Source of the DNA: Eledone cirrhosa | Taxonomy: Eukaryota | Direction of reading: 5' to 3' | Assembly (NCBI GenBank): GCA_964016885.1 | Contig: OZ024762.1 | Span: forward strand, 29,574,001 to 29,638,000 | DNA: 64,000 bases | Shown here: piece by piece, positions 28,548 to 64,000 of the stretch | Layout of the letters: the number at the start of each line of letters is the position of its first letter | How positions within the stretch are numbered: position 1 is the stretch's first letter | Notes under the pieces: model-generated | Databases searched by the model: none | Seen by the model: only the letters and a program-made list of their open reading frames with translations | Told to the model about the DNA's origin: nothing | Position numbers and translations under genes: made by a program

Positions 28548-30318
28548 ATCATCATCATCATCATCATCATCGTTTAACGTCCATATTCCACGCTTGCATG
28601 GGTTTGGACGGGAGTTTTGCCACTTGAGGCAAGAGTGGTTGTCTTGCTCGCATAGGACTGTCTGGCGGGTTTTCTACAGCTGGATGCCCTTCCTAACACC
28701 AACCACGTTTACAGTGTGGAACTGGGAGGTTTTTACCGTGTTGCCTACACAGCAACATTACAGCGTGGATTGTGTGTTTTTTTGTCGTGACACCTACACG
28801 ACCTCATTTGTTTCGGACTGGATGTTGTGGTACCAACATAACTTTACATTGAAAGGGGTGGTGAGGATGGGTGGGGGTAGTGGGACTGGGGTGTATTTTG
28901 TTAGAGGTGCCTACTGACTGTGGTAGGTTTCACTTTGTACTTAGATAAGGCGGGTCTTCTCTATTACTGAGTAGCGCCAAAGATCTCAGTCCAGTGACAT
29001 TGTCTTGGAGAGGTGTAAGTGTGTAAGGTCGGAATTTATCAAGTCGTCCCAGGTTTTTCTGGGTCTGCCTACTCCGTGGCTACCGTCTATCTTTATTGCC
29101 CTGCACTTTTTTATACAGCTGTCATCTTTCATGCGCATCACGTGACCATACCAACGTAGTCTTCTCTCGAGTAAACAACATCTGATCCCTCTTATTTCTA
29201 ATTTTTCCCTTAGTACGTTTATGCTTTGCCGTTCACGTATATTACTATTACACATCCAGGGGAGCATGCAAGCTTCGTTCCTCTCCAGTCTGCGTATATC
29301 CTCTGCACACAATGCCCAGGTCTCACTGCCATGTAACATTGCTGTTTGTATGCAGGCATCATACAGCCTGCCTTTCATTTTTAGAGAGAACCCTTTAGCG
29401 GCTAATAGTGGTATAAGCTCTCTGAACTTTTTCTATCCAGTTCTGACTCTAGCTACTGTACTTTCAGAGCACCCTCCCCCACTGCTGATTTTGTCACCCA
29501 GGTAAAGGAAGCTGTCCACTATTTCTATAGAACCATATGTGCAATGGAATGAGCTAGTATTTTGTGGGCACTTGCTGCTACTTATTGCACCAGAGCACTG
29601 GCCACATATAAAATCTATGTTCTTAGTTAGCTTACCTGTGATCCCACTACATCTTTTATGCACCCATACTTTGCATTTGGGACATAAAATGGAGTTTCTA
29701 CCTACTCCTTTCCTACACACTGAGCATGGCCATTTCCCGGATGGGACCGGTGCCCTATTTTCCTTCCTACAAACTAGAACTTTAGTCTTAGACAGGTTAA
29801 TTTTAAGGCCTTTTGATTCTAGGCCATGCTTCCATGTTTGGAACTTCTTCTCTAGTTCGGCCATTGATTCAGCTATGAGCGTTAGATCATCTGCGTATAG
29901 GAGTTCCCATGGGCAGCCGGTTTTGAACTCCACTGTTATAACCTGAAGGGCAATAATAAATAGTAGGGGGCTAAGAACGCAGCCCTGATGAACACCAACT
30001 TTTATGCTAAACTCTTCACTATATTCGTTATTAATTCTAACCTTGCTGACTGTTTCTTTATACATGGCTTGTATAGCCCTCACAAGCCATTCATCAACAC
30101 CTAGTTTTCTAAGAGCCCACCAGATAATGGAACGGGGGACTCTGTTGAAGGCTTTCTCTAAGTCGACAAAAGCTAAGTATAGGGGTTTACTTTTAGCTAG
30201 GTACTTCTCCTGTAGTTGTCGTACAATGAAAAGAGCGTCTGTGGTACTTTTAACTGATACAAACCCGAACGGCATTTCATCTAGATCAATTCTCTCTCTG
30301 ATTAGTTGCGCTATTACT
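28548..30318 (-). mobile_element. 5'-truncated RTE LINE with RT (YADD intact), PHD-like finger, full 3' UTR and (GAT)n tail
   Basis: ORFs 29433-30683 (AFVDLEKAFNRVP, GVHQGCVLSPLLF, LLYADD) and 28986-29378. The 3' UTR at 28548-28980 contains a single copy of the 111-bp array unit. Confidence 0.93.
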
Positions 30319-31345
30319 GTGTAACACCAGAGGTCACGGTCGTGTGTCATCGCTCTTGAGAGGTGTAATTGGGAAAGGTCAGCTTTCATCACCTCATCCC
30401 AGGTCTTCTTGGGTCTCCCCACTCCGCGGTTTCCATCGACTTCTAGTGCTCTGCACCTTTTTATGTAGCTATCATCCTTCATATCACATGTCCATACCAA
30501 CACAACCTCCTCTCCTGCACACATCATTTGATTCCTCTTATGCTCAGTCTCTCTCAATTCGTTAATGCTTTGCCGTTCACGTATATTACTATTACACATC
30601 CATCGGAGCATGCAGGCTTCGTTTCTTTCTAATCTACCCAAGTCTTCTACAGACAGCGCCCAGGTCTCACTACCATGTAACATTGCTGTTCATATACACG
30701 CATCATACAGTCTGCCTTTCATTTTGAGGGAGAAGCCTTTTGCAGCTAGTAGTGGCAGTAGCTCCCTGAACTTCTTCCATCCCGTTCTTACCCTAGTTAT
30801 TGTACTTTCTGAACACCCACCTCCGCTGCTAATTTGGTCATCTAGGTAGCAGAAGCTGTCTACTGTTTCTACAGAGCCCTCCCAGAGATTGGTGGTACTT
30901 GTTTCCTGTGGCTGTTTGCTGCTTGCTGTCCCAGCACAGCTGCTGCATGTGAAGCCTACATTCTTAGTTAAGCTTCCTGAGATCCCGCTTCATCTCTTGT
31001 GTACCCATTGTTTGCATTTGGGGCAGAGAATGGAGTTCCTACATACTGAGCAAGGCTATTTCCCTGAGGGTATTTGGGTTCTGTTTTCTTGTCTACTTAC
31101 AAGGACCTTAGTCTTTGTCAGGTTGACTTTGAGACCCTTACTTTCTAGTCCCTGCTTCCATGTTTGGAATTTCTTCTCTAGTTCCACCATGGATTCAGCT
31201 ATAAGTGTGAGGTCATCAGCATACAGGAGTTCCCATGGGCATCCGGTCTTAAACTCCTCCGTTATTGCCTGCAGGACTATGATGAACAGGAGAGTGCTAA
31301 GAACAGATCCCTGGTGGACACCGACCTGTATGCTAAATTCCTCGC
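30311..31345 (-). mobile_element. Second, divergent RTE LINE fragment (RT end, PHD-like finger, C-terminus) fused head-to-tail to the previous copy
   Basis: The minus strand again gives VGVHQGSVLSTLLF, LYADD, MLHGSETWALS and GRPKKTWDEV. It lacks its own 3' UTR. Confidence 0.88.
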
Positions 31346-31367
31346 TATATATATATATATATATATA

Positions 31368-33215
31368 CAGAGTACGAGAATAGACCTAGAAGAAATAGAT
31401 CCCGACGCATTATATGGTATAACCCACCATGTAATATGGAGGTGGCCACACCATTAGCTAAGATCTTTCTCTCCTTTATTACGAAGCATTTTCCCCCTAC
31501 ACATAAATATAGTAAAATTTTTAATAGAAATACTATTAAAATTTCTTACTCTACGACTCCTAACCTTGCACATAACATCACAGCTTCTAATTTAGCTAAA
31601 CTACCTAGCCGTAGGAACACGTGCAACCCAGTAGTTAGTACTAACTGTAATTGTAGGAATCGGGTTGATTGCCCCCTATCCGGAAAATGCCTCTCTAGTA
31701 ACATTGTCTACAAATGTAAGGTTGTAACACCCACGTCCCGTAGGGCCTACATAGGGTTAACCGCCAATAGATTCAAGCAGCGTCTTTACATGCATACCCA
31801 TTCTTTTCGTTACCCTCTAAGAAGGAATATGACGTCACTTTCAGATTATATCTGGAGTCTAAAAGACAACCACACCTAATATAAGTTACACTGGGAGATC
31901 CTAGCTAGGGCTAGATCATATAACAGAAATAAAAGATCATGTGACCTTTGCGCCGCTGAGGCCCTGGAAATACTCTACGCCACAGACCACATCTTAAACA
32001 AAAAATCTGAGGCAATTTCGGCTTGTAAACATAAATTGCACAAAACTTTCCTGTATTACAGCCCCACATTATACCCTAATGGATAGTACGATCTATATGC
32101 GGATATTTTACATCTTGATGTGGTAGCTAAGTATATGTTATGTTTATACCATTACTTATTTGCATAGGTAAGTATATATTACCTGTATGTTTTGTGAAGG
32201 TACGTATACTTTCTCGTACGTATATTTGATTGTATATGTTATGGCGTATATTTTATATATTCTGGTACATATGCTTTTGGTTATGTGTATACGTGAGTTT
32301 TGCGTCTATGTGAGTATGTGGGTTCGTACATATGTAGGGTGTGTGTATATGTGTACTTCGTGTTTTGGTTGACGTACGTCTCCGAACATTTGTGTATTTA
32401 CATGTAGGTATGTGTGTGCGCATGTTATATACATATTTATTTAATTATTTGTATACACGCACACACACACACACATATTTATATGTGCGTGGTTTTTTAT
32501 ACCTATGGCGAGTGTTTTCGCGTATGCTTGTGTATGTACGTATATGGATGCGTGTATGTATTTATTTAATTTCAATTGCCTCTGTATTGTATTTTATTTA
32601 CTTTATTCTTAACTCTGAAGCCGAGATTCATTCGGTCTCCTAGTTAGAATTTTAGTCTACGACTTCTGCTATACCATTTACGTGGTTTTGTCTTTGCGTG
32701 CAATTGTTCTCCACACTCCACATATGACGTATTATCTTCGTTTTTTCCGTTCATTGCCAGAGAATGTCTCTATGCACCACCTAAGAGAACATTAGTCTAC
32801 GACCTCTTTTATACCATTTACGTGGTTTTGTCTTTGCGTGCAATTGTTCTCCACGCTCCACATATGACGTATTATCTTCGTTTTTTCAGTTCATTGCCAG
32901 AGAACGTCTCTATGCACCACCTAAGAGAACATTAGTCTACAACTTCTTTTATACCATAAACGTGGTTTTGTCTTTGCGTGTAATTGTTTTTCATCGCTCC
33001 TATTAAGGACGTATTATATTCGTTTTTTCCCGTTCTTTGCCAAGGAACATTTCCACGAACCAAAGTATCGTCTTCCTATCTTCCTTCTGTTGCAACGTTT
33101 TTTGAAATATTCACTTCTGCCTTCACAGATTGACTTTGTTAGTTTCAGAAGATCCCGTTAAGGGTGAAAGCAGCGATTCTTTGCTTAAACTTTAATATGT
33201 TATTTTAATAAATAA
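31368..33215 (+). mobile_element. Penelope-like element (Naiad-like) 3' fragment: linker, GIY-YIG endonuclease and long 3' region
   Basis: IIWYNPP...KIFNRNTIKISYS...CNCRNRVDCPLSGKCLSSNIVYKC...YIGLTANRFKQRL. There is one TAA at 31877, after which the frame continues (WEIL..RSCDLCAAE..LNKKSE..CKH) to a stop at 32086. It starts in (TA)n; the 3' boundary is uncertain. Confidence 0.85.
32652..33060. repeat. 140-bp tandem repeat, ~3 copies, in the PLE 3' region
   Basis: ttagtctac(g/a)ac.tct..tatacca.. recurs at 32652, 32792 and 32932. Confidence 0.88.
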
Positions 33216-33279
33216 ATATATATATATATATATAGTGGCAAAACATAAGTCAATTGCATGAACTCATAATCCTTTATTT

Positions 33280-33335
33280 ACTGCTATATATATTTCGATG
33301 ATAGCCATTGAATGGCTATGACCTCATCAGGCAGT
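33280..33335 (-). ncRNA. Minimal type-I hammerhead ribozyme with intact catalytic core
   Basis: Minus strand reads actgc-CTGATGA-ggtcatagccat(tca)atggctatcatc-GAAA-TATATA-TA-gcagt. Stem I is 5 bp, stem II ~11 bp, loop 3 is palindromic and the cleavage triplet is AUA. Confidence 0.82.
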
Positions 33336-33393
33336 TAGTCAGTTCTTAGACATGCCAGCTCTGTGTTTATAGTGTTGATGGTATCAGAGCCTT

Positions 33394-33429
<36 letters not shown>

Positions 33430-33623
33430 GATAGCATATATATGTGTTTGGTATGTATATTTAATTTTGATAGTTTGTATAATTTTGTATAATTTTGTAC
33501 ATAGATCTGTTGAATATGCATGCCAATTCTAACACATATATATCCTAGAAACGATCGTTAAATAATGAACTTTTTTTGTTTAATATAAGGAACTGTTTCA
33601 TTGTTTTATTCATTATTTTTTTA

Positions 33624-33661
<38 letters not shown>

Positions 33662-37452: not shown

Positions 37453-37596
37453 TCAGTAGAGATAGTTTTGGTATAAACAGGAGCATTGCCTGCAGCATGT
37501 CACAAATTCAGATTTTCATCTGAGGATATCGTTCTCACAACAACAAATACATGAATTACATCTTGGACTGCATAAGAGAACCGTTGAAATAATTAT

Positions 37597-38660
37597 TATG
37601 GCTTAGTGGTTAGAGCATTGGCCTTGCAATCGAAAGTTGTGAGTTCAATTCTCAGACCGGGTAATGTGTTGTTTCCTTGAGCAAGACACTTTATTTCACA
37701 TTGCTCCAGTTTACTCAGCTGTAGAAATGAGATGATAGGGACTGGGGTCCCTATCATTCCACTGTAAAGTGGTCGTGGAGGTGCCACGGCAAAAAAGCAC
37801 CCAGCACTCACTGTAAAGTGGTCGTGGAGGTGCCATGGCAAAAAAGCACCCAGCACACACTGTAAAGTGGTCGTGGAGGTGCCACGGAAAATAAGCACCC
37901 AGCCCACACTGTAAAGTGGTCGTGGAGGTGCCACGGCAAAAAAGCACCCAGCACACACTGTAAAGTGGTCGTGGAGGTGCCACGGCAAAAAAGCACCCAA
38001 CACTCACTGTAAAGTGGTCGTGGAGGTGCCACGGCAAAAAAGCACCCAGCACACACTGTAAAGTGGTCGTGGAGGTGCCACGGCAAATAAGCACCCAGCC
38101 CACACTGTAAAGTGGTCGTGGAGGTGCCACGGCAAATAAGCACCCAGCCCACACTGTAAAGTGGTCGTGGAGGTGCCACGGCAAATAAGCACCCAGCCCA
38201 CACTGTAAAGTGGTCGTGGAGGTGCCATGGCAAAAAAGCACCCAGCCCACACTGTAAAGTGGTCGTGGAGGTGCCACGGCAAATAAGCACCCAGCCCACA
38301 CTGTAAAGTGGTCGTGGAGGTGCCACGGCAAAAAAGCACCCAGCCCACACTGTAAAGTGGTCGTGGAGGTGCCACGGCAAATAAGCACCCAGCCCACACT
38401 GTAAAGTGGTCGTGGAGGTGCCACGGCAAAAAAGCACCCAGCCCACACTGTAAAGTGGTCGTGGAGGTGCCATGGCAAAAAAGCACCCAGCACTCACTGT
38501 AAAGTGGTCGTGGAGGTGCCACGGCAAAAAAGCACGCAGCACTCACTGTAAATGAGGTTGGTGTTAAGAAGGGCATCCATCTGTAGAAATCAAGCCAGAA
38601 TCAGTTCCCGTCCCACCCTTGCAAGCAGGGAAAAAGCGGACGTAAAATGAAACGAAACAA
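37597..38660 (+). mobile_element. tRNA-derived SINE (family B; CORE/V-like central domain) joined to an RTE-type 3' tail expanded into a 49-bp array
   Basis: A-box TGGCTTAGTGG, B-box GAGTTCAATTC and central gtttccttgagcaagacacttt. After the array comes gttggtgttaagaagggcatcc...cccttgcaagcagggaaaaagcggacgtaaaatga, the same tail as the RTE at 26170-26220. Confidence 0.75.
37760..38550 (+). repeat. 49-bp minisatellite (~16 units)
   Basis: Unit cactgtaaagtggtcgtggaggtgccacggcaaaaaagcacccagc(a/c)ca. Confidence 0.95.
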
Positions 38661-38711: not shown

Positions 38712-40940
38712 GTAGGTGTCATATGTGGCCGATGCTCAGGTGCAGTAAGTAGCAAGTGCCCACTAGATACTAGCTCCTTCAACTGCCCAGATGGTTCTAT
38801 AGAAATACTACTTGGGTGTCAAAATCAGCAGTGGAGGAGGGTGTTCTGAAAGTACAGTAACCTGAGTAAGAACAGGATGGAAAATCTACAGAGAGCTAAT
38901 ATCAGCGCTCCCTGTAAAAGGTTTCTCCCTAAATATGAAAGGTAGATTGTATGATGCTTGTATATGAACAGCAATGTTACATGGTAGTGAGACATGGGCA
39001 TTGTGTGCAGAGGACCTGCACAGACTGGAAAAGAACGAAGCATGCATGCTGTGATGGATGCGTAATAATAATATACACAAACAGCAAAGTGTAAACATAC
39101 TAAGTGAAAAATCAGGCATAAAAGGGATCAGCTGCAGTTTACTAGAGAGGAGATTACGTTGGTATGATCATGTGATGCGTATGAAGGATGACAACTCTAT
39201 ACAAAAGGTGCAGGGTGTTCAAAACTGATGGAAGCTATGGAGTAGGAAGATCTGGGATGAGTGATAAAAGCTGACCTTGCACACTTGAACCTCTCTAAGA
39301 CAATGATACAAGAGAGAGATCTTTGGCGCTATGTAGTAATACAGAAGACCAACATTCCCTTGCACAGACTTCAACTTACACTCAGTAGGCACCTCTTAAT
39401 CCAATATACATCCCATACACCTACACCTCCAATCCACTTCCACCCACACCACCTTTATCCTGTAAAATTATGTTGGTACCACAGACCATGCAGTCCACAC
39501 TGTAAAGTGGTCATGTAGGTGTCATGGCAAAAAAGCAACCAGTCCACACTGTAAGATGGTTATGTAGGTGTCATAAGAAAAAGTACCTAGCCCTCACTGT
39601 AAAGTGGTCATGTAGGTGTCATGACAAAAGGTACCCAGTCCACACTGTAAAGTGGTCATGTAGGTGTCATGACAAGAGGTACGCAGTCCACACTGTAAAG
39701 TGGTCATGTAGGTGTCATGACAAGAGGTACCCAGTCCACACTGTAAAGTGGCCATGTAGGTGTCATGACAAGAGGTACCCAGTCCACACTGTAGAGTGGC
39801 CATGTAGGTGTCATGACAAAAGGTACCCAGTCCACACTGTAGAGTGGCCATGTAGGTGTCATGACAAAAGGTACCCAGTCCACACTGTTGAGTGGCCATG
39901 TAGGTGTCATGACAAGAAGTACCCAGTCCACACTGTAAAGTGGTCATGTAGGTGTCATGAGAAAAGGTACCCAGTCCACACTGTTGAGTGGCCATGTAGG
40001 TGTCATAAAAAGAGGTACCCAGTCCACACTATAAAGTGGTCATGTAGGTGTCATGACAAAAGGTACCCAGTCCACACTGTTGAGTGGCCATGTAGGTGTC
40101 ATGAAAAGAGGTACCCAGTCCACACTGTAAAGTGGTCATGTAGGTGTCATGACAAAAGGTACCCAGTCCACACTGTAAAGTGGTCATGTAGGTGTCATGA
40201 CAAAAGGTACCCAGTCCACACTGTAAAGTGTTCATGCAGGTGTCATGACAAAAAGTACCCAGTCCACACTGTAAAGTGGCCATGTAGGTGTCATGACAAA
40301 AGGTACCCAGTTCACACTGTCGAGTGGCCATGTGTCATGACAAAAGGTACCCAGTTCACACTGTCGAGTGGCCATGTAGGTGTCATGACAAGAGGTACCC
40401 AGTCCACACTGTAAAGTGGCCATGTAGGTGTCATGAAAAGAGGTACCCAGTCCACACTGTAAAGTGTTCATGTAGGTGTCATGACAAAAGGTACCCAGTC
40501 CACACTGTCGAGTGGCCATGTAGGTATCATGACAACAGGTACCCAGTCCACACTGTAGAGTGGCTATGTAGCTGTCATTACAAAAGGTACCCAGTCCACA
40601 CTGTAGAGTGGCCATGTAGGTGTCATGACAAAAGGTACCCAGTCCACACTGTCGAGTGGCCATGTAGGTGTCATGACAAGAGGTACCCAGTCCACACTGT
40701 AAAGTGGTCATGTAGGTGTCATGACAAGAGGTACCCAGTCCACACTGTAAAGTGGTCATGTCGGTGTCATGACAAAAGGTACCCAGTCCACACTATAAAG
40801 TGGTCATGAAAAAAAGCACCTAGCACGTACTGTATGAACAAGACATGGTCACCTGACCTAGCATTGCAAACAACAGGAGAATTTGTTTAACCCATGCTAG
40901 CGTGTAAAAATGGACGTAAAACGGTAATGATGAGGATGAT
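38712..40940 (+). mobile_element. Degenerate 5'-truncated RTE LINE whose 3' UTR contains a 48-bp array
   Basis: aatatgaaaggtagattgtatgatgc...atgttacatggtagtgagacatgggca (MKGRLYDA..MLHGSETWA). The tail is catgctagcgtgtaaaaatggacgtaaaacggtaatgatgaggatgat. Confidence 0.82.
39497..40808 (+). repeat. 48-bp minisatellite (~27 units)
   Basis: Unit cactgtaaagtggtcatgtaggtgtcatgacaaaaggtacccagtcca, giving the 16-aa periodic ORFs. Confidence 0.95.
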
Positions 40941-41197: not shown

Positions 41198-41200
<3 letters not shown>

Positions 41201-41628
41201 TCATCATCATCATCAACGTTTAACGTCCGTGTTCCACGCTTGCATGGGTTTGGACGGGGGTAGTCCCACTTGAGGCAAGAGTGTTTGTCTTGCTCGCATA
41301 GGACTGTCTGGCAGGTTTTCTACAGTTGGATGCCCTTCCTAACACCAACCACATTTACAGTGTGGGTCTGGGAGGTTTTTATCGTGTTGCCTACACGGCC
41401 ACATTACAGCGTGGACTGTGTGTTTTTTTGTCGTGACACCTACACGATCTCATTTGTTTCGGCCTCGATGGTGTGGCACCAACATAACTTTACATAGAAG
41501 GGGGTGGTGTGGAGGTGGTGGTGGTGGTGGGACGGGGTGTATTTTGTTAGAGATGCCTACTGGCTGTAGTAGGTTTTACTATGTATTTAGGTAAAGCAGG
41601 TCTTCTCTGTTACTGAGTACCGCCAAAT
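41198..41628 (-). mobile_element. RTE LINE 3'-UTR-only copy (monomeric form of the 111-bp unit)
   Basis: Colinear with 28548-28980, with a (CAT)n tail at 41198-41214. Confidence 0.88.
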
Positions 41629-49550: not shown

Positions 49551-49931
49551 ATTACATACGTATATATAAATATATATATTACATACATATATATAAATAT
49601 ATACATATATAGATACGTATATATATATATGTATATATTTATATATATATATGTATATATTTATATATATATATGTATATATTTATATATACATGTTATA
49701 TATATATATATATTACATACGTATATATAAATATATACATATATAGATACGTATATATATATATGTATATATTTATATATATATATGTATATATTTATAT
49801 ATACATGTTATGTATATATTTATATATATATATGTATATATTTATATATACATGTTATATATATATATATATATATATTACACACGTATATATAAATATA
49901 TACATATATAGATACGTATATATATATATAT
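49551..49931. repeat. Compound (TA)n-based low-complexity tract with internal duplication
   Basis: Directly visible. Confidence 0.9.
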
Positions 49932-50065
49932 GCAAAATTAAATTAAGATAGACGTGTTACAGACCTGCGCATTACACACTTTACAAATTATTCCCTGTGA
50001 TTGTTTCATGTGTTTATTTTAAATATATATATATATATATATATATGTCAATCAATTTCTTGTTG

Positions 50066-50106
<41 letters not shown>

Positions 50107-50112
50107 CGTAAA

Positions 50113-50215
50113 TCATCATCATTATCATCATCGTTTAACGTCCGTGTTCCACGCTTGCATGGGTTTGGACGGGAGTTTTCCCACTTGAGGCAAGAGTGAT
50201 TGTCTTGCTCGCATA
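50113..50215 (-). mobile_element. RTE 3' terminus and (CAT)n tail anchoring the 111-bp array
   Basis: catcatc..cgtttaacgtccgtgttccacgcttgcatgggtttggacggg matches 28548-28655 and 41198-41300. Confidence 0.9.
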
Positions 50216-53200
50216 GGACTGTCTGGCGGGTTTTCTACAGCTGGATGCCCTTCCTAACACCAACCACATTTACAGTGTGGACTGGGAGATTTTTACCGTG
50301 TTGCCTACACGGCCTCATTACAGCGTGGACTGTCTGGCGGGATTTCTACAGCTGGATGCCCTTCCTAACACCAACCACATTTAGTGTGGGGTTGCGAGGT
50401 TTTTACCGTGTTGCCTACACGGCCACATTAGAGCATGGACTGTCTGGCGGGTTTTATACGGCTGGATGCCCTTCCTAACACCAACCACATTTACAGTGTG
50501 GGGCTGGGAGGTTTTTACCGTGTTGCCTACACGGCCACATTACAGCGTGGACTGTCTGGGGGGTTTTCTATAGCTGGATACCCTTCCTAACACCAACTAC
50601 GTTTACAGTGTGGAACTGGGAGGTTTTTCCCATGTTGCCTACACGGCCACATTACAGCGTGGACTGTCTGGCGGGTTTTCTACAGCTGGATGCCCTTCCT
50701 AACACCAACCACATTTACAGTGTGGACTGGGAGATTTTTACCGTGTTGCCTACACGGCCACATTACAGCGTGGACTGTCTGGCGGGTTTTCTACGGCTGG
50801 ATGCCCTTCCTAACACCAACCACATTTACAGTGTGGACTGGGCGGTTTTTACCGTGTTGCCTACACGGCCACATTACAGCGTGGACTGTCTGGCGGGTTA
50901 TCTACGGCTGGATGCCCTTCCTAACACCAACCACATTTACAGTGTGGACTGGGAGGTTTTTACCGTGTTGCCTACACGGCCACGTTACAGCGTGGACTGT
51001 GTGGCGGGTTTTCTACGGCTGGATGCCCTTCCTAACACCAACCACATTTACATTGTGGACTGGGAGATTTTTACAGTGTTGCCTACACGGCCACATTACA
51101 GCGTGGACTGACTGGCGGGTTTTCTACAGCTGGATGCTCTTCCTAACACCAACCACATTTACAGTGTGGACTGGGAGATTTTTACCGTGTTGCCTACACG
51201 GCCACATTACAGCGTGGACTGTCTGGCGGGTTTTCTACGGCTGGATGCCCTTCATAACACCAACCACATTTACAGTGTGGGGCTGGGAGGTTTTTACTGT
51301 GTTGCCTACACAGCCACATTACAGCGTGGACTGTCTGGCGGGTTTTCTACAGCTGGATGCCCTTCCTAACACCAACTACGTTTACAGTGTGGAACTGGGA
51401 GGTTTTTACCGTGTTGCCTACACGGCCACATTACAGCGTGGACTGTCTGGCGGGTTTTCTACGGCTGGATGCCCTACCTAACACCAACCACATTTACAGT
51501 GTGGACTGGGAGATTTTTACCGTGTTGCCTACACGGCCACATTACAGCGTGGACTGACTGGCGGGTTTTCTACAGCTGGATGCTGTTCCTAACACCAACC
51601 ACATTTACAGTCTGGACTGGGAGGTTTTTACCGTGTTGCCTACACGGCCACATTACAGCGTGGACTGTCTGGCGGGTTTTCTACGGCTGGATGCCCTTTC
51701 TAACACCAACCACATTTACATTGTGGACTGGGAGATTTTTACCGTGTTGCCTACACGGCCACATTACAGCGTGGACTGTCTGGCGGGTTTTCTACGGCTG
51801 GATGCCCTTCCTAACACCAACCACATTTAGTGTGGGGTTGCGTGGTTTTTACCGTGTTGCCTACACGGCCACATTACAGCGTGGACTGTCTGGCGGGTTT
51901 TCTATGGCTGGATGCCCTTTCTAACACCAACCACATTTACAGTGTGGGCTGGGAGGTTTTTACCGTGTTGCCTACACGGCCACATTACAGCGTGGACTAT
52001 CTGGCGGGTTTTCTACAGCTGGATGCCCTTCCTAACACCAACTACGCTTACAGTGTGGAACTGGGAGGTTTTTTCCGTGTTGCCTACACGGCCACATTAC
52101 AGCGTGGACTGTCTGGCGGGTTTTCCACAGCTGGATGCCCTTCCTAACACCAACCACATTTACAGTGTGGACTGGGCGGTTTTTACCGTGTTGCCTACAC
52201 GGCCACATTACAGCGTGGACTGTCTGGCGGGTTATCTACGGCTGGATGCCCTTCCTAACACCAACCACATTTACAGTGTGGACTGGGAGGTTTTTACCGT
52301 GTTGCCTACACGGCCACATTACAGCGTGGACTGTCTGGCGGGTTATCTACGGCTGGATGCCCTTCCTAACACCAACCACATTTACAGTGTGGACTGGAGG
52401 TTTTTACCGTGTTGCCTACACGGCCACGTTACAGCGTGGACTGTGTGGCGGGTTTTCTACGGCTGGATGCCCTTCCTAACACCAACCACATTTACATTGT
52501 GGACTGGGAGATTTTTACAGTGTTGCCTACACGGCCACATTACAGCGTGGACTGACTGGCGGGTTTTCTACAGCTGGATGCTCTTCCTAACACCAACCAC
52601 ATTTACAGTGTGGACTGGGAGATTTTTACCGTGTTGCCTACACGGCCACATTACAGCGTGGACTGTCTGGCGGGTTTTCTACGGCTGGATGCCCTTCCTA
52701 ACACCAACCACATTTACAGTGTGGGGCTGGGAGGTTTTTACTGTGTTGCCTACACAGCCACATTACAGCGTGGACTGTCTGGCGGGTTTTCTACAGCTGG
52801 ATGCCCTTCCTAACACCAACTACGTTTACAGTGTGGAACTGGGAGGTTTTTACCGTGTTGCCTACACGGCCACATTACAGCGTGGACTGTCTGGCGGGTT
52901 TTCTACGGCTGGATGCCCTACCTAACACCAACCACATTTACAGTGTGGACTGGGAGATTTTTACCGTGTTGCCTACACGGCCACATTACAGCGTGGACTG
53001 ACTGGCGGGTTTTCTACAGCTGGATGCTGTTCCTAACACCAACCACATTTACAGTCTGGACTGGGAGGTTTTTACCGTGTTGCCTACACGGCCACATTAC
53101 AGCGTGGACTGTCTGGCGGGTTTTCTACGGCTGGATGCCCTTTCTAACACCAACCACATTTACATTGTGGACTGGGAGATTTTTACCGTGTTGCCTACAC

Positions 53201-56200
53201 GGCCACATTACAGCGTGGACTGTCTGGCGGGTTTTCTACGGCTGGATGCCCTTCCTAACACCAACCACATTTAGTGTGGGGTTGCGTGGTTTTTACCGTG
53301 TTGCCTACACGGCCACATTACAGCGTGGACTGTCTGGCGGGTTTTCTATGGCTGGATGCCCTTTCTAACACCAACCACATTTACAGTGTGGGCTGGGAGG
53401 TTTTTACCGTGTTGCCTACACGGCCACATTACAGCGTGGACTATCTGGCGGGTTTTCTACAGCTGGATGCCCTTCCTAACACCAACTACGCTTACAGTGT
53501 GGAACTGGGAGGTTTTTTCCGTGTTGCCTACACGGCCACATTACAGCGTGGACTGTCTGGCGGGTTTTCCACAGCTGGATGCCCTTCCTAACACCAACCA
53601 CATTTACAGTGTGGACTGGGAGATTTTTACCGTGTTGCCTACACGGCCACATTACAGCGTGGACTGTCTGGCGGGTTTTCTACGGCTGGATGCCCTTCCT
53701 AACACCAACCACATTTACAGTGTGGACTGGGAGGTTTTTACCGTGTTGCCTACACGGCCACATTACAGCGTGGACTGTCTGGCGGGTTTTCTACGGCTGG
53801 ATGCCCTTCCTAACACCAACTACGTTTACAGTGTGGAACTGGGAGGTTTTTAGCGTGTTGCCTACACGGCCACATTACAGCGTGGACTGTCTGGCGGGTT
53901 TTCTACAGCTGGATGCCCTTCCTAACACCAACCACATTTACAGTGTGGACTGGGAGATTTTTACCGTGTTGCCTACACGGCCACATTACAGAGTGGACTG
54001 TCTGGCGGGTTTTCTACGGCTGGATGCCCTTCCTAACACCAACCACATTTACAGTGTGGACTGGGATGTTTTTACCGTGTTGCCTACACGGCCACATTAG
54101 AGCGTGGACTGTCTGGCGGGTTATCTACGGCTGGATGCCCTTCCTAACACCAACCACATTTACAGTGTGGACTGGGAGGTTTTTACCGTGTTGCCTACAC
54201 GGCCACATTACAGCGTGGACTGTCTGGCGGATTTTCTACGGCTGGATGCCCTTCCTAACACCAACCACATTTACATTGTGGACTGGGAGATTTTTACCGT
54301 GTTGCCTACACGGCCACATTACAGCGTGGACTGACTGGCGGGTTTTCTACAGCTGGATGCTCTTCCTAACACCAACCACATTTACAGTGTGGACTGGGAG
54401 ATTTTTACCGTGTTGCCTACACGGCCACATTACAGCGTGGACTGTCTGGCGGGTTTTCTACGGCTGGATGCCCTTCCTAACACCAACCACATTTACAGTG
54501 TGGGGCTGGGAGGTTTTTACTGTGTTGCCTCCACAGCCACATTACAGCGTGGACTGTCTGGCGGGTTTTCTACAGCTGGATGCCCTTCCTAACACCAACT
54601 ACGTTTACAGTGTGGAACTGGGAGGTTTTTACCGTGTTGCCTACACGGCCACATTACAGCGTGGACTGTCTGGCGGGTTTTCTACGGCTGGATGCCCTTC
54701 CTAACACCAACCACATTTACAGTGTGGGCTGGGAGGTTTTTACCGTGTTGCCTACACGGCAACATTATAGTGTGGACTGTCTGGCGGGTTTTCTACAGCT
54801 GGATGCCCTTCCTAACACCAACTACGCTTACAGTGTGGAACTGGGAGGTTTTTACCGTGTTGCCTACACGGCCACATTACAGCGTGGACTGTCTGGCGGG
54901 TTTTCTACAGCTGGATGCCCTTCCTAACACCAACCACATTTACAGTGTGGACTGGGAGATTTTTACCGTGTTGCCTACACGGCCACATTACAGCGTGGAC
55001 TGTCTGGCGGGTTTTCTACGACTGGATGCCCTTCCTAACACCAACCACATTTACAGTGTGGACTGGGCGGTTTTTACCGTGTTGCCTACACGGCCACATT
55101 ACAGCGTGGACTGTCTGGCGGGTTTTCTACGGCTGGATGCCCTTCCTAACACCAACCACATTTACAGTGTGGACTGGGAGGTTTTTACAGTGTTGCCTAC
55201 ACGGCCACATTACAGCGTGGACTGTCTGGCGGGTTTTCTACGGCTTGATGCCCTTCCTAACACCAACCACATTTAGTGTGGGGTTGCGAGGTTTTTACTG
55301 TGTTGCTTACACGGCCACATTATAGCGTGGACTGTCTGGCGGGTTTTCTACGGCTGGATGCCCTTCCTAACACCAACCACATTTACAGTGTGGACTGGGA
55401 GGTTTTTACCGTGTTGCCTACACGGCCACATTACAGCGTGGACTGTCTGGCGGGTTTTCTACGGCTGGATGCCCTTCCTAACACCAACCACATTTACATT
55501 GTGGACTGGGAGATTTTTACCGTGTTGCCTACACGGCCACATTACAGCGTGGACTGTCTGGCGGGTTTTCTACGGCTGGATGCCCTTCCTAACACCAACC
55601 ACATTTACAGTGTGGGGCTGGAAGGTTTTTACTGTGTTGCCTACACAGCCACATTACAGCGTGGACTGTCTGGCGGGTTTTCTACAGCTGGATGCCCTTC
55701 CTAACACCAACCACATTTACAGTGTGGGCTGGGAGGTTTTTACCGTGTTGCCTACACGGCCACATTACAGTGTGGACTGTCTGGCGGGTTTTTACCGTGT
55801 TGCCTACACGGCCACATTACAGCGTGGACTGTCTGGCGGGTTTTCTACGGCTGGATGCCCTTCCTAACACCAACCACATTTACAGTGTGGACTGGGAGAT
55901 TTTTACCGTGTTGCCTACACGGCCACATTACAGCGTGGACTGTCTGGCGGGTTTTCTAAGGCTGGATGCCCTTCCTAACACCAACCACATTTACAGTGTG
56001 GGCTGGGAGGTTTTTACCGTGTTGCCTACACGGCCACATTACAGTGTGGACTGTCTGGCGGGTTTTCTACAGCTGGATGCCCTTCCTAACACCAACTACG
56101 CTTACAGTGTGGAACTGGGAGGTTTTTACCGGGTTGCCTACACGGCCACATTACAGCGTGGACTGTCTGGCGGGTTATCTACGGCTGGATGCCCTTCCTA

Positions 56201-59200
56201 ACACCAACCACATTTACAGTGTGGACTGGGAGGTTTTTACCGTGTTGCCTACACGGCCACATTACAGCGTGGACTGTCTGGCAGGTTTTCTGCAGCTGGA
56301 TGCCCTTCCTAACACCAACTACGCTTACAGTGTGGAACTGGGAGGTTTTTACCGTGTTGCCTACACGGCCACATTACAGCGTGGACTGTCTGGCGGGTTT
56401 TCTACAGCTGGATGCCCTTCCTAACACCAACCACATTTACAGTGTGGACTGGGAGATTTTTACCGTGTTGCCTACACGGCCACATTACAGCGTGGACTGT
56501 CTGGCGGGTTTCCTACGGCTGGATGCCCTTCCTAACACCAACCACATTTACAGTGTGGACTGGGAGGTTTTTACCGTGTTGCCTACACGGCCACATTACA
56601 GCGTTGACTGTCTGGCGGATTTTCTACGGCTGGATGCCCTTCCTAACACCAACCACATTTACAGTGTGGACTGGGAGGTTTTTACCGTGTTGCCTACACG
56701 GCCACATTACAGCGTGGACTGTCTGGCGGGTTTTCTACGACTGGATGCCCTTCCTAACACCAACCACATTTACAGTGTGGACTGGGCGGTTTTTACCGTG
56801 TTGCCTACACGGCCACATTACAGCGTGGACTGTCTGGCGGGTTTTCTACGGCTGGATGCCCTTCCTAACACCAACCACATTTACAGTGTGGACTGGGAGG
56901 TTTTTACAGTGTTGCCTACACGGCCACATTACAGCGTGGACTGTCTGGCGGGTTTTCTACGGCTTGATGCCCTTCCTAACACCAACCACATTTAGTGTGG
57001 GGTTGCGAGGTTTTTACTGTGTTGCTTACACGGCCACATTATAGCGTGGACTGTCTGGCGGGTTTTCTACGGCTGGATGCCCTTCCTAACACCAACCACA
57101 TTTACAGTGTGGACTGGGAGGTTTTTACCGTGTTGCCTACACGGCCACATTACAGCGTGGACTGTCTGGCGGGTTATCTACGGCTGGATGCCCTTCCTAA
57201 CACCAACCACATTTACAGTGTGGACTGGGAGGTTTTTACAGTGTTGCCTACACGGCCACATTACAGCGTGGACTGTCTGGCGGGTTTTCTACGGCTGGAT
57301 GCCCTTCCTAACACCAACCACATTTACATTGTGGACTGGGAGATTTTTACCGTGTTGCCTACACGGCCACATTACAGCGTGGACTGTCTGGCGGGTTTTC
57401 TACGGCTGGATGCCCTTCCTAACACCAACCACATTTACAGTGTGGGGCTGGAAGGTTTTTACTGTGTTGCCTACACAGCCACATTACAGCGTGGACTGTC
57501 TGGCGGGTTTTCTACAGCTGGATGCCCTTCCTAACACCAACTACGTTTACAGTGTGGAACTGGGAGGTTTTTACCGTGTTGCCTACACGGCCACATTACA
57601 GCGTGGACTGTCTGGCGGGTTTTCTACGGCTGGATGCCCTTCCTAACACCAACCACATTTACAGTGTGGGCTGGGAGGTTTTTACCGTGTTGCCTACACG
57701 GCCACATTACAGTGTGGACTGTCTGGCGGGTTTTTACCGTGTTGCCTACACGGCCACATTACAGCGTGGACTGTCTGGCGGGTTTTCTACGACTGGATGC
57801 CCTTCCTAACACCAACCACATTTACAGTGTGGACTGGGCGGTTTTTACCGTGTTGCCTACACGGCCACATTACAGCGTGGACTGTCTGGCGGGTTTTCTA
57901 CGGCTGGATGCCCTTCCTAACACCAACCACATTTACAGTGTGGACTGGGAGGTTTTTACAGTGTTGCTTACACGGCCACATTACAGCGTGGACTGTCTGG
58001 CGGGTTTTCTACGGCTTGATGCCCTTCCTAACACCAACCACATTTAGTGTGGGGTTGCGAGGTTTTTACTGTGTTGCTTACACGGCCACATTATAGCGTG
58101 GACTGTCTGGCGCGTTTTTTACGGCTGGATGCCCTTCCTAACACCAACCACATTTACAGTGTGGACTGGGAGGTTTTTACCGTGTTGCCTACACGGCCAC
58201 ATTACAGCGTGGACTGTCTGGCGGGTTATCTACGGCTGGATGCCCTTCCTAACACCAACCACATTTACAGTGTGGACTGGGAGGTTTTTACCGTGTTGCC
58301 TACACGGCCACATTACAGCGTGGACTGTCTGGCGGGTTTTCTACGGCTGGATGCCCTTCCTAACACCAACCATATTTACATTGTGGACTGGGAGATTTTT
58401 ACCGTGTTGCCTACACGGCCACATTACAGCGTGGACTGTCTGGCGGGTTTTCTACGGCTGGATGCCCTTCCTAACACCAACCACATTTACAGTGTGGGGC
58501 TGGAAGGTTTTTACTGTGTTGCCTACACAGCCACATTACAGCGTGGACTGTCTGGCGGGTTTTCTACAGCTGGATGCCCTTCCTAACACCAACTACGTTT
58601 ACAGTGTGGAACTGGGAGGTTTTTACCGTGTTGCCTACACGGCCACATTACAGCGTGGACTGTCTGGCGGGTTTTCTACGGCTGGATGCCCTTCCTAACA
58701 CCAACCACATTTACAGTGTGGGCTGGGAGGTTTTTACCGTGTTGCCTACACGGCCACATTACAGTGTGGACTGTCTGGCGGGTTTTTACCGTGTTGCCTA
58801 CACGGCCACATTACAGCGTGGACTGTCTGGCGGGTTTTCTACGGCTGGATGCCCTTCCCAACACCAACCACATTTACAGTGTGGACTGGGAGATTTTTAC
58901 CGTGTTGCCTACACGGCCACATTACAGCGTGGACTGTCTGGCGGGTTTTCTAAGGCTGGATGCCCTTCCTAACACCAACCACATTTACAGTGTGGGCTGG
59001 GAGGTTTTTACCGTGTTGCCTACACGGCCACATTACAGCGTGGACTGTCTGGCAGGTTTTCTGCAGCTGGATGCCCTTCCTAACACCAACTACGCTTACA
59101 GTGTGGAACTGGGAGGTTTTTACCGTGTTGCCTACACGGCCACATTACAGCGTGGACTGTCTGGCGGGTTTTCTACAGCTGGATGCCCTTCCTAACACCA

Positions 59201-62200
59201 ACCACATTTACAGTGTGGACTGGGAGATTTTTACCATGTTGCCTACACGGCCACATTACAGCGTGGACTGTCTGGCGGGTTTCCTACGGCTGGATGCCCT
59301 TCCTAACACCAACCACATTTACAGTGTGGACTGGGAGGTTTTTACCGTGTTGCCTACACGGCCACATTACAGCGTTGACTGTCTGGCGGATTTTCTACGG
59401 CTGGATGCCCTTCCTAACACCAACCACATTTACAGTGTGGACTGGGAGGTTTTTACCGTGTTGCCTACACGGCCACATTACAGCGTGGACTGTCTGGCGG
59501 GTTTTCTACGGCTGGATGCCCTTCCTAACACCAACCACATTTAGTGTGGGGTTGCGAGGTTTTTACTGTGTTGCTTACACGGCCACATTATAGCGTGGAC
59601 TGCCTGGCGGGTTTTCTACGGCTGGATGCCCTTCCTAACACCAACCACATTTACAGTGTGGACTGGGAGGTTTTTACCGTGTTGCCTACACGGCCACATT
59701 ACAGCGTGGATTGACTGGCGGGTTTTCTACGGCTGGATGTCCTTCCTAACACCAACCACATTTACAGTGTGGGGCTGGGAGGTTTTTACTGTGTTGCCTA
59801 CACAGCCACATTACAGCGTGGACTGTCTGGCGGGTTTTCTACAGCTAGATGCCCTTCCTAACACCAACTACGTTTACAGTGTGGAACTGGGAGGTTTTTA
59901 CCGTGTTGCCTACACGGCCACATTACAGCGTGGACTGTCTGGCGGGTTTTCTACGGCTGGATGCCCTTCCTAACACCAACCACATTTACAGTGTGGGCTG
60001 GGAGGTTTTTGCCGTGTTGCCTTCACGGCCACATTACAGTGTGGACTGTCTGGCGGGTTTTCTACAGCTGGATGCCCTTCCTAACACCAACTACGCTTAC
60101 AGTGTGGAACTGGGAGGTTTTTACCGTGTTGCCTACACGGCCACATTACAGTGTGGACTGTCTGGCGGGTTTTTACCGTGTTGCCCACACGGCCACATTA
60201 CAGCGTGGACTGTCTGGCGGGTTTTCTACGGCTGGATGCCCTTCCTAACACCAACCACATTTACAGTGTGGACTGGGAGATTTTTACCGTGTTGCCTACA
60301 CGGCCACATTACAGCGTGGACTGTCTGGCGGGTTTTCTAAGGCTGGATGCCCTTCCTAACACCAACCACATTTACAGTGTGGGCTGGGAGGTTTTTACCG
60401 TGTTGCCTACACGGCCACATTACAGTGTGGACTGTCTGGCGGGTTTTCTACAGCTGGATGCCTTTCCTAACACCAACTACGCTTACAGTGTGGAACTGGG
60501 AGGTTTTTACCGGGTTGCCTACACGGCCACATTACAGCGTGGACTGTCTGGCGGGTTATCTACGGCTGGATGCCCTTCCTAACACCAACCACATTTACAG
60601 TGTGGACTGGGAGGTTTTTACCGTGTTGCCTACACGGCCACATTACAGCGTGGACTGTCTGGCAGGTTTTCTGCAGATGGATGCCCTTCCTAACACCAAC
60701 TACGCTTACAGTGTGGAACTGGGAGGTTTTTACCGTGTTGCCTACACGGCCACATTACAGCGTGGACTGTCTGGCGGGTTTTCTACAGCTGGATGCCCTT
60801 CCTAACACCAACCACATTTACAGTGTGGACTGGGAGATTTTTACCGTGTTGCCTACACGGCCACATTACAGCGTGGACTGTCTGGCGGGTTTCCTACGGC
60901 TGGATGCCCTTCCTAACACCAACCACATTTACAGTGTGGACTGGGAGGTTTTTACCGTGTTGCCTACACGGCCACATTACAGCGTTGACTGTCTGGCGGA
61001 TTTTCTACGGCTGGATGCCCTTCCTAACACCAACCACATTTACAGTGTGGACTGGGAGGTTTTTACCGTGTTGCCTACACGGCCACATTACAGCGTGGAC
61101 TGTCTGGCGGGTTTTCTACGACTGGATGCCCTTCCTAACACCAACCACATTTACATTGTGGACTGGGAGATTTTTACCATGTTGCCTACACGGCCACATT
61201 ACAGCGTGGACTGTCTGGCGGGTTTTCTACGGCTGGATGCCCTTCCTAACACCAACCACATTTACAGTGTGGACTGGGAGGTTTTTACAGTGTTGCCTAC
61301 ACGGCCACATTACAGCGTGGACTGTCTGGCGGGTTTTCTACGGCTTGATGCCCTTCCTAACACCAACCACATTTAGTGTGGGGTTGCGAGGTTTTTACTG
61401 TGTTGCTTACACGGCCACATTATAGCGTGGACTGTCTGGCGGGTTTTCTACGGCTGGATGCCCTTCCTAACACCAACCACATTTACAGTGTGGACTGGGA
61501 GGTTTTTACCGTGTTGCCTACACGGCCACATTACAGCGTGGATTGTCTGGCGGGTTATCTACGGCTGGATGCCCTTCCTAACACCAACCACATTTACAGT
61601 GTGGACTGGGAGGTTTTTACCGTGTTGCCTACACGGCCACATTACAGCGTGGACTGTCTGGCGGGTTTTCTACGGCTGGATGCCCTTCCTAACACCAACC
61701 ACATTTACATTGTGGACTGGGAGATTTTTACCGTGTTGCCTACACGGCCACATTACAGCGTGGACTGTCTGGCGGGTTTTTACCGTGTTGCCTACACGGC
61801 CACATTACAGCGTGGACTGTCTGGCGGGTTTTCTACGACTGGATGCCCTTCCTAACACCAACCACATTTACAGTGTGGACTGGGCGGTTTTTACCGTGTT
61901 GCCTACACGGCCACATTACAGCGTGGACTGTCTGGCGGGTTTTCTACGGCTGGATGCCCTTCCTAACACCAACCACATTTACAGTGTGGACTGGGAGGTT
62001 TTTACAGTGTTGCCTACACGGCCACATTACAGCGTGGACTGTCTGGCGGGTTTTCTACGGCTTGATGCCCTTCCTAACACCAACCACATTTAGTGTGGGG
62101 TTGCGAGGTTTTTACTGTGTTGCTTACACGGCCACATTATAGCGTGGACTGTCTGGCGGGTTTTTTACGGCTGGATGCCCTTCCTAACACCAACCACATT

Positions 62201-64000
62201 TACAGTGTGGACTGGGAGGTTTTTACCGTGTTGCCTACACGGCCACATTACAGCGTGGACTGTCTGGCGGGTTATCTACGGCTGGATGCCCTTCCTAACA
62301 CCAACCACATTTACAGTGTGGACTGGGAGGTTTTTACTGTGTTGCCTACACGGCCACATTACAGCGTGGACTGTCTGGCGGGTTTTCTACGGCTGGATGC
62401 CCTTCCTAACACCAACCACATTTACAGTGTGGACTGGGAGATTTTTACCGTGTTGCCTACACGGCCACATTACAGCGTGGACTGTCTGGCGGGTTTTCTA
62501 CGGCTGGATGCCCTTCCTAACACCAACCACATTTACAGTGTGGGGCTGGAAGGTTTTTACTGTGTTGCCTACACAGCCACATTACAGCGTGGACTGTCTG
62601 GCGGGTTTTCTACAGCTGGATGCCCTTCCTAACACCAACTACGTTTACAGTGTGGAACTGGGAGGTTTTTACCGTGTTGCCTACACGGCCACATTACAGC
62701 GTGGACTGTCTGGCGGGTTTTCTACGGCTGGATGCCCTTCCTAACACCAACCACATTTACAGTGTGGGCTGGGAGGTTTTTACCGTGTTGCCTACACGGC
62801 CACATTACAGTGTGGACTGTCTGGCGGGTTTTTACCGTGTTGCCTACACGGCCACATTACAGCGTGGACTGTCTGGCGGGTTTTCTACGGCTGGATGCCC
62901 TTCCTAACACCAACCACATTTACAGTGTGGACTGGGAGATTTTTACCGTGTTGCCTACACGGCCACATTACAGCGTGGACTGTCTGGCGGGTTTTCTAAG
63001 GCTGGATGCCCTTCCTAACACCAACCACATTTACAGTGTGGGCTGGGAGGTTTTTACCGTGTTGCCTACACGGCCACATTACAGCGTGGACTGTCTGGCA
63101 GGTTTTCTGCAGCTGGATGCCCTTCCTAACACCAACTACGCTTACAGTGTGGAACTGGGAGGTTTTTACCGTGTTGCCTACACGGCCACATTACAGCGTG
63201 GACTGTCTGGCGGGTTTTCTACAGCTGGATGCCCTTCCTAACACCAACCACATTTACAGTGTGGACTGGGAGATTTTTACCGTGTTGCCTACACGGCCAC
63301 ATTACAGCGTGGACTGTCTGGCGGGTTTCCTACGGCTGGATGCCCTTCCTAACACCAACCACATTTACAGTGTGGACTGGGAGGTTTTTACCGTGTTGCC
63401 TACACGGCCACATTACAGCGTTGACTGTCTGGCGGATTTTCTACGGCTGGATGCCCTTCCTAACACCAACCACATTTACAGTGTGGACTGGGAGGTTTTT
63501 ACCGTGTTGCCTACACGGCCACATTACAGCGTGGACTGTCTGGCGGGTTTTCTACGGCTGGATGCCCTTCCTAACACCAACCACATTTAGTGTGGGGTTG
63601 CGAGGTTTTTACTGTGTTGCTTACACGGCCACATTATAGCGTGGACTGCCTGGCGGGTTTTCTACGGCTGGATGCCCTTCCTAACACCAAACACATTTAC
63701 AGTGTGGACTGGGAGGTTTTTACCGTGTTGCCTACACGGCCACATTACAGCGTGGATTGACTGGCGGGTTTTCTACGGCTGGATGTCCTTCCTAACACCA
63801 ACCACATTTACAGTGTGGGGCTGGGAGGTTTTTACTGTGTTGCCTACACAGCCACATTACAGCGTGGACTGTCTGGCGGGTTTTCTACAGCTAGATGCCC
63901 TTCCTAACACCAACTACGTTTACAGTGTGGAACTGGGAGGTTTTTACCGTGTTGCCTACACGGCCACATTACAGCGTGGACTGTCTGGCGGGTTTTCTAC
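50216..64000 (-). repeat. ~111-bp satellite array (>120 units, open at window end) derived from the RTE 3' UTR, with higher-order structure
   Basis: Unit ggactgtctggcgggttttctac(a/g)gctggatgcccttcctaacaccaaccacatttacagtgtggactggga(g)gtttttaccgtgttgcctacacggccacattacagcgt. Single-copy homologues lie at ~28655-28770 and ~41300-41415. Confidence 0.97.

What the first reader, a model, noticed from the sequence alone, without database searches (positions are those of the whole stretch)
28655..64000. One RTE 3'-UTR stem-loop, preserved by compensatory changes, seeded three independent arrays (48, 49 and 111 bp)
Seen, in element-sense orientation, all units share cactgtaa(a)gtgg-[hairpin]-aaaa..cccag.cca. 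The hairpin differs in sequence but keeps pairing: gtcatg-taggtgt-catgac (48-mer), gtcgtgg-aggtg-ccacggc (49-mer), gccgtgt-aggca-acacggt (111-mer) and gtcgtg-taggtgt-cacgac (unexpanded UTRs near 28790 and 41435). These show A-U/G-C, U-A/C-G and G-C/U-A swaps around a constant AGGY loop. Each array sits inside an element that still has its RTE tail: a LINE (39.5 kb), a SINE (37.8 kb) and a 3' end (50.1 kb). Established: stringent LINEs, and SINEs that borrow their tails, use 3' stem-loops for RT recognition. Inference: this is a functional RNA motif that is repeatedly multimerised, perhaps by RT slippage or template jumping. If transcribed, the arrays could be multivalent binding or decoy RNAs for the RTE protein.
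Basis: partly seen in the sequence, partly recalled or inferred. Interest (0 to 1): 0.75.

Follow-up and report, generated by a model that had tools for sequence, protein, structure and literature searches.

The report
Retrotransposon tail repeat seeds satellite DNA
A short unit that is already repeated two or three times in the tail of a jumping gene has grown into long tandem arrays at many places in this genome, likely by ordinary DNA-level duplication; the unit is predicted to fold as an RNA pseudoknot, but the arrays often break that fold and nothing here shows that they have a job.

Summary
The three arrays are real and each sits in a retroposon copy that keeps its 3' tail. The seed, however, is no single stem-loop. 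The ordinary 3' UTR of this RTE-type LINE family already holds two or three degenerate ~48-nt modules (P) plus a longer relative (C); the 111-mer is P+C. Module arrays are common: 9 of 65 complex arrays with 5+ copies in a 1.4-Mb sample, against 0 from ORF, tail or SINE head. P+C dimers were retrotransposed as dimers, and later growth is DNA-level (the 111-mer spans ~303 kb, with kb-scale higher-order repeats). The covariation claim is weak: the 48-mer 'swap' is CpG decay on both arms, only 38 of 156 units in sampled arrays keep all six pairs, and family-level covariation is not clearly above chance. The module fits an H-type pseudoknot better than a plain hairpin (one clean U-A to A-U change in 21 modules), unproven. 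A separate terminal hairpin is the better candidate for RT recognition and was not seen expanded. The scan noted a 48-mer satellite of this kind before on other DNA of this genome. New member of a known kind.

The parts
28963..30308 (-). 3' part of a broken RTE-type LINE ORF (RT, PHD finger, C-terminus)
   Evidence: Pfam RVT_1 6e-26 and PHD 5e-6; near-full-length relatives have one ~1,060-aa ORF with endonuclease, RT and PHD
28758..28806 (-). module A (P type) of the unexpanded 3' UTR; stem at 28784-28802
28710..28757 (-). module B (P type); first half of the 111-mer
28650..28709 (-). module C, the longer relative; core also found in short retroposons of other organisms; second half of the 111-mer
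28560..28612 (-). terminal two-helix hairpin and (GAT)n tail; best candidate for the RT-recognised stem-loop (inferred)
   Evidence: folding z -3.6; 91.7% paired, 16 two-sided cells over 12 families
37590..37759 (+). tRNA-derived SINE head and body
   Evidence: Rfam tRNA 37599-37655, E 0.082; 53 matches to this head in 1.4 Mb
37760..38552 (+). 49-bp array, 16 P modules, inside the SINE
   Evidence: 15 of 16 units keep six pairs
38553..38650 (+). SINE module C and terminal hairpin
38720..39490 (+). end of a decayed LINE ORF and upper 3' UTR of a second subfamily
   Evidence: sequence likeness to 28963-29640 read
39491..40808 (+). 48-bp array, 27 P modules; both stem CpGs decayed; module C deleted behind it
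40809..40930 (+). LINE tail with terminal hairpin
41200..41620 (-). second unexpanded 3' UTR with modules A, B, C and tail
50125..50215 (-). LINE tail (terminal hairpin, (GAT)n) closing the 111-mer array
50216..64000 (-). first 13.8 kb of a ~303-kb satellite of B+C units
   Evidence: exact 300-mers recur at 1,444, 4,046 and 4,381 bp

Best explanation
The arrays are minisatellite and satellite DNA grown from a tandem module that the 3' UTR of an RTE-type LINE family and its SINE already carry in one to three copies, likely by DNA-level slippage and unequal exchange after insertion. Step 1 (shown): source elements carry degenerate repeats P-P-C or P-C, with shared spacer words at a 48-49 bp spacing. 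Step 2 (shown by pattern): some source lineages carried extra modules, such as (B+C)x2, and retrotransposed them, seeding near-perfect direct repeats at many loci. Step 3 (inferred from shared private changes, higher-order repeats and a 303-kb span): these seeds expand as DNA, whether or not the stem is intact. The module itself is probably a folded RNA element of the source transcripts, predicted to be an H-type pseudoknot (6-bp stem 1, 2-nt loop, 4-5-bp stem 2, A-rich linker), which may help the RT hold its template; this is inferred, and the array copies are not under selection for it.
For: Three modules in the normal UTR in all 30 loci that were read (output partly cut). 118 module chains in 140 unselected 10-kb stretches, 11 with five or more P modules. 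Arrays of 5+ copies: 9 module-derived of 65; 0 from ORF (29.6 kb), tail (4.5 kb), SINE head (5.8 kb), upper UTR (1.4 kb). 2 of 9 near-full-length LINEs carry (B+C)x2. In 34 dimers 1 private change is shared by both units and 62 are unit-specific; dimers cluster on a tree of flanks alone (6 changes against 17.4 shuffled; one 7-dimer clade at 100/95) and 11 of 33 share a tail variant. In a 6-unit array two units share two private changes. 38 of 156 parsed units in ten sampled arrays keep all six pairs. Neighbouring arrays come from other repeats: the 45-mer from another SINE's head, the 170-mer holds a SINE-head piece. Precedent: PMC7004042 (abstract), PMC10702118 (abstract, Discussion), PMC9659126 (passages).
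Against: The enrichment test cannot tell 'already tandem' from 'folds', as the modules are both. Other element parts were annotated with one LINE copy and two SINE pieces only, so arrays from diverged ORFs may sit among the 52 'other' arrays. 30 of the 34 dimers were picked by likeness to one dimer, which inflates clustering; dimers are not one clade (at least 2 changes forced), so repeated birth of dimers during reverse transcription is not excluded. The B+C junction rests on only ~7 bp of microhomology, yet it is the commonest duplication in that subfamily. The 303-kb span was sampled at points, not read through.
Confidence: 0.75

Rival explanations
1. The modules are RT-binding pseudoknots whose number is selected in source elements: lineages with more modules bind the protein better and out-copy others, so module gain is adaptive for the element even if long arrays are junk.
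For: Canonical H-type geometry in 9 module types; stem-2 position 3 is U-A in five types and A-U in a family of 21 modules from 18 loci, a double transversion away from CpG; 3 of 5 stem-2 pairs show a two-sided change; the SINE keeps P, C and the terminal hairpin but lacks ~45 nt between them; dimer lineages were active; vertebrate R2 proteins bind a 3'-UTR pseudoknot-hinge-stem (PMC12180492, passages).
Against: Stem 2 is paired in only 75% of cells; one type has a C-A mismatch in its middle and type B needs a register shift; 40 of 173 pairs of variable columns show a two-sided change and the proposed pairs do not rank on top; P modules fold no better than shuffles as hairpins (z -0.1 to -0.9; pseudoknots are not scored); 25 of 118 chains show C without a detected P, and the short retroposons of other organisms have C and the terminal hairpin without P.
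Confidence: 0.3
2. One reading: RT slippage or template jumping at the hairpin makes each array during insertion.
For: Dimer units share almost no private changes, so the duplication was present at insertion; dimers are not monophyletic; module number varies from 0 to 3+ among 20 copies of one family.
Against: The two units of a dimer differ at recurrent subfamily sites (49 differences in 34 dimers), which fresh slippage on one template would not give; a 303-kb span and kb-scale higher-order repeats cannot come from one RT pass; arrays with broken stems are as long as intact ones. It may still explain the first duplication in a source element.
Confidence: 0.12
3. The arrays are transcribed and act as multivalent decoys for the RTE protein.
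For: The 49-mer and 111-mer arrays of the window mostly keep the stem (15 of 16, 104 of 124), and the 49-mer lies behind a tRNA-derived head that could drive Pol III.
Against: Intact stems go with young, homogeneous arrays; 38 of 156 units keep it in the sampled arrays and 9 of 25 in the window's 48-mer; both directions of double CpG decay, pairing and non-pairing, have been fixed in arrays; the better candidate for RT binding, the terminal hairpin, was not seen expanded.
Confidence: 0.06
4. The pairing is a leftover of a short palindrome with no RNA role; the module is a neutral VNTR.
For: Weak family-level covariation; core pairs never vary and were part of my search anchor; CpG transitions run at 6.7% against 1.8%.
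Against: Stem 1 keeps five or six pairs in most types (91.7% of cells); the C core is shared with retroposons of other organisms at a like distance from a like tail.
Confidence: 0.3

Closest known systems
Satellites from tandem repeats inside Ogre LTR retrotransposons (Lathyrus, PMC7004042, abstract; pea PisTR-A from the 3' UTR, as cited in PMC9659126, passages)
   Same: Short tandem arrays already present in a retrotransposon's non-coding part occasionally expand into long arrays, mainly in satellite-rich regions.
   Different: Here the host is a non-LTR element and its SINE, the unit is a candidate RNA structure, and dimeric source lineages could be traced.
SINE-derived satellites (sSat) of squamates (PMC10702118; abstract, passages, Discussion)
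   Same: Arrays made of part of a retroposon with the element's own end still attached; many independent loci; long loci near chromosome ends (the 303-kb array ends ~0.9 Mb from the end of its 30.8-Mb contig).
   Different: [quoted passage not shown]
3' stem-loops of stringent LINEs ZfL2-1 and ZfL2-2 (PMC4176376, abstract)
   Same: A 3'-tail stem-loop shared by LINE and SINE, bound by ORF2.
   Different: L2 clade, tested by assay. The positional counterpart here is the terminal hairpin, not the expanded module, which lies 90-250 nt upstream.
Pseudoknot-hinge-stem of avian and turtle R2 3' UTRs (PMC12180492, passages)
   Same: A pseudoknot upstream of a 3' stem in a non-LTR 3' UTR.
   Different: Single, next to the 3' end, solved by cryo-EM and tested by compensatory mutants; here repeated, further upstream and only predicted.

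Membership tests
RTE-clade LINE | single ORF with APE endonuclease followed by RT | tested here: met
   ORFs of 901-1,068 aa in relatives; Exo_endo_phos then RVT_1; a PHD finger follows the RT
RTE-clade LINE | short tandem-repeat 3' tail | tested here: met
   (GAT)n behind the terminal hairpin
RTE-clade LINE | RT groups with RTE references on a tree | not tested
   no reference set at hand; PDB hits are L1 and R2 only; the label rests on architecture and recall
retrotransposon-derived satellite / minisatellite | unit homologous to part of a dispersed element, element end still attached | tested here: met
retrotransposon-derived satellite / minisatellite | signs of DNA-level turnover (higher-order repeats, shared variants) | tested here: met
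   exact 300-mers at 1,444-6,817 bp offsets; shared private changes in L332
stringent-LINE 3' recognition stem-loop | lies at the 3' end, next to the tail repeat | tested here: not met
   P modules lie upstream of C; another hairpin holds the terminal place
stringent-LINE 3' recognition stem-loop | shared by LINE and partner SINE | tested here: met
stringent-LINE 3' recognition stem-loop | bound by ORF protein and needed for retrotransposition | not testable with these tools
   needs assays
H-type pseudoknot | loop of stem 1 pairs with a downstream strand; short L1, A-rich L3 | tested here: met
   geometry in most of 9 types
H-type pseudoknot | covariation in both stems above chance | tested here: inconclusive
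   4 of 11 pairs two-sided, 37 of 500 shuffles as high; score 0.178, 2 of 500, a level that related rows can reach without structure; not an outlier among column pairs
known Rfam RNA or ribozyme | match to a covariance model | tested here: not met
   no hit on any module at E<=1 in 28400-51000

The most novel reading that the evidence does not exclude
The 3' UTR of this RTE-type family is a string of small H-type pseudoknots that the ORF protein binds; source elements tune their number (one to four), dimeric lineages won recent bursts, and the same modularity makes the element a genome-wide satellite factory of the order of 10,000 arrays, one of ~300 kb.
Probability: 0.25. Interest if true: 0.6.

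Novelty: new member of a known kind. Interest (0 to 1): 0.33.

Why it matters
It gives a clean, countable case of satellite birth: every stage from degenerate repeat in the source element, through mobilised dimers and short arrays, to a 300-kb block is present in one genome. If the pseudoknot reading holds, it names a testable template signal for RTE-type proteins, a class already used for gene writing (PMC13708176, passages), for which my searches found no 3'-UTR structure study. The decoy-RNA idea has no support.

Tried and rejected
Rfam on the finding: only AT-repeat miRNA noise and a weak tRNA. Ribozyme idea: 20 of the 120 metagenome loci scanned, one weak twister-P1 match (L224, E 0.3, far below cut-off); no twister word or C module in the 5' parts of 9 near-full-length LINEs; dropped for this family. 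Idea that C is the RTE 5'-UTR domain of Kojima 2018: its core was not found in that paper's supplement as text (alignments with gaps or figures could hide it). The C20 111-mer array is not an independent expansion: same 3' flank as the window. Expression: no RNA holder listed; contigs laid are of unknown kind and say nothing on RNA. Viral contigs: one match, inside what reads as unrelated coding DNA, taken as chance; a few metagenome matches (L218, L228) also look like chance. Earlier-finding look-ups by sequence and by words were blank. Literature searches found no description of this module or of an RTE 3'-UTR pseudoknot; Repbase, Dfam and subscription journals were not searched, and bioRxiv supplements are closed, so a repeat library may already list these consensus tails.
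Full report
SETTING. The window is C23:29,574,001-29,638,000 of a 3.0-Gb animal genome. That it is an octopus is my inference from recalled SINE likeness and from earlier scan notes; no call names it. The window is satellite-rich: 45-, 21-, 140-, 170-, 49-, 48-, 186- and 111-bp arrays.

OBSERVATION. The unexpanded UTR is itself a degenerate repeat: module A, module B (both ~48 nt, type P), module C (~63 nt), then ~45 nt, a terminal hairpin and (GAT)n. Thirty close relatives were fetched and those visible in the partly cut output all show this layout. The 49-mer is the SINE's single P module, the 48-mer a P module of a second LINE subfamily, the 111-mer is B+C. Near-full-length relatives are ~3.7 kb with one ORF (endonuclease, RT, PHD); 'RTE' rests on this architecture, not on a tree.

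HOW COMMON. A sequence profile found 308 P and 100 C modules in 118 chains, 0 in reversed decoys; 11 chains have five or more P. TRF gave 233 complex arrays of period 20+, 65 with five or more copies: 9 module-derived, 4 from another SINE (31 kb), 52 unassigned, and none from the ORF (29.6 kb), tail (4.5 kb), SINE head (5.8 kb) or upper UTR (1.4 kb), against ~10.3 kb of module seed (p 4.5e-7, or 3e-6 with the other SINE). The other parts were defined by single reference copies, so this is approximate. Scaled up, it is of the order of 10,000 arrays. A search with the 49-mer array scored 40 of 686 candidates; the 30 loci cut out show arrays at many different insertion sites. The 111-mer matches from the window to C23:29,927,756, ~303 kb, sampled at points; the C20 block has the same flank and is a duplicate.

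MECHANISM OF GROWTH. Two of 9 near-full-length LINEs carry (B+C)x2. Among 34 dimers (30 picked by likeness to one of them) both units share 1 private change, 62 are unit-specific, and the units differ at recurrent subfamily sites 49 times. On a tree of flanks only (24 dimers, 28 monomers; shorter copies left out) the label needs 6 changes against 17.4 shuffled, with a 7-dimer clade at 100/95, but dimers are not one clade; 11 of 33 share a tail variant, at sites whose flanks are either distinct or plain (TA)n. So dimers were copied as dimers. Longer arrays show DNA turnover: shared private changes in a 6-mer and exact 300-mers recurring at 1,444 to 6,817 bp in the window. RT slippage may have made the first dimer; it did not make the arrays.

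STRUCTURE. CpG transitions in this family run at 81 of 1,201 against 157 of 8,563 elsewhere. Double decay has fixed as a pairing state in the window's 48-mer and L316, and as a non-pairing state in L058 and L329. In ten sampled arrays 38 of 156 parsed units keep six pairs; in the window 9 of 25, 15 of 16 and 104 of 124. For source-level types I parsed 295 modules, dropped 107 that lie in arrays, and sorted 183 of 188 into 9 types (the anchor fixes the inner stem pairs). Stem 1 has one clean covarying column (U-A, U-G, C-G). The loop can pair with the C-rich word behind the A-run, giving H-type geometry; one family of 21 modules swaps U-A to A-U there. On 12 hand-picked real copies 84% of cells pair, 4 of 11 pairs change on both sides (37 of 500 shuffles), score 0.178 (2 of 500), but stem 2 pairs in 75% only, and among 173 pairs of variable columns 40 show a two-sided change, with the proposed pairs not on top. 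As plain hairpins the modules are unremarkable (z -0.1 to -1.7). Verdict: plausible, unproven. The terminal hairpin does better (z -3.6 in the LINE, -1.35 in the SINE; 91.7% paired, 16 two-sided cells, score 0.382, 0 of 500; 4 pairs, 76 of 500), though that alignment includes five rows from other organisms and so is deeper. Metagenome contigs (120 loci, scan cut at its limit, core fixed by the pattern) show C plus this terminal hairpin without P in short retroposons, so C and the terminal hairpin look like the old core and P the variable part.

COMPARISON. Expansion of tandem repeats held inside retrotransposons is known (PMC7004042, abstract; PMC9659126, passages), as are SINE-derived arrays with the element end attached (PMC10702118, abstract, passages and Discussion; lead from note e1-9515023). 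Stem-loop binding by stringent LINEs: PMC4176376 (abstract). A 3'-UTR pseudoknot bound by R2: PMC12180492 (passages). Also seen: PMC5786205 (parts 1-3 of 5 and two supplement searches), PMC9115989, PMC13282606, PMC8501958, PMC13708176 (passages); none describes this module in what I saw. A zebrafish DANA preprint holds the C core (10.1101/493155, listing only). Note e1-9585604 reached the same reading for a 48-mer satellite elsewhere in this genome; it is an unchecked note, not independent support.

VERDICT. Real, recurrent and well documented, but a new member of a known kind. The open and testable part is whether P and C are RT-binding pseudoknots whose number matters to the element. Interest 0.33.

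Noticed in passing
window 1-15137: The 45-bp satellite is an expansion of the head of a different, very common SINE; the rest of that SINE follows at ~15140-15290.
   Followed up: partly
G000:C23:29929834 to beyond 30005000 (L297-L300): A 54-bp satellite of at least 75 kb starts 2 kb after the 111-mer block; no match in the sampled repeats.
   Followed up: partly
window 28560-30300 and G000:C27 13.2-14.6 Mb (L002-L004); window 49600-50400 and G000:C20:3.25 Mb: Near-identical paralogues with flanks on other chromosomes: segmental duplication, or assembly duplication (the C20 arrays abut N gaps).
   Followed up: partly
window 29600-29730 (minus); L286 residues 808-851: The LINE ORF carries a PHD finger right after the RT domain; first-look candidates for this RT number 141,129.
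   Followed up: no
L141-L260 (metagenome contigs): Short (~250 bp) retroposons of other organisms, some with target-site duplications, begin ~30 nt before module C at a fixed point, with no tRNA head, and end in the same kind of terminal hairpin; their 5' part can be drawn as a nested pseudoknot. A fixed 5' end could mean RNA processing.
   Followed up: partly
L224:320-377 (minus): Weak twister-P1 match directly upstream of module C.
   Followed up: partly
L050, L101, L309, L315: An older family has a different hairpin plus A-run upstream of C in place of P; homology to P untested.
   Followed up: no
window 15500-18807: The 21-bp array abuts a decayed LINE ORF piece; its unit matched nothing in the sample.
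   Followed up: partly
140 sampled stretches: At least six of the 10-kb stretches are satellite from end to end (periods 25-68); module arrays fell 2 in 80 stretches of C1-C4 and 7 in 60 of the smaller contigs.
   Followed up: no
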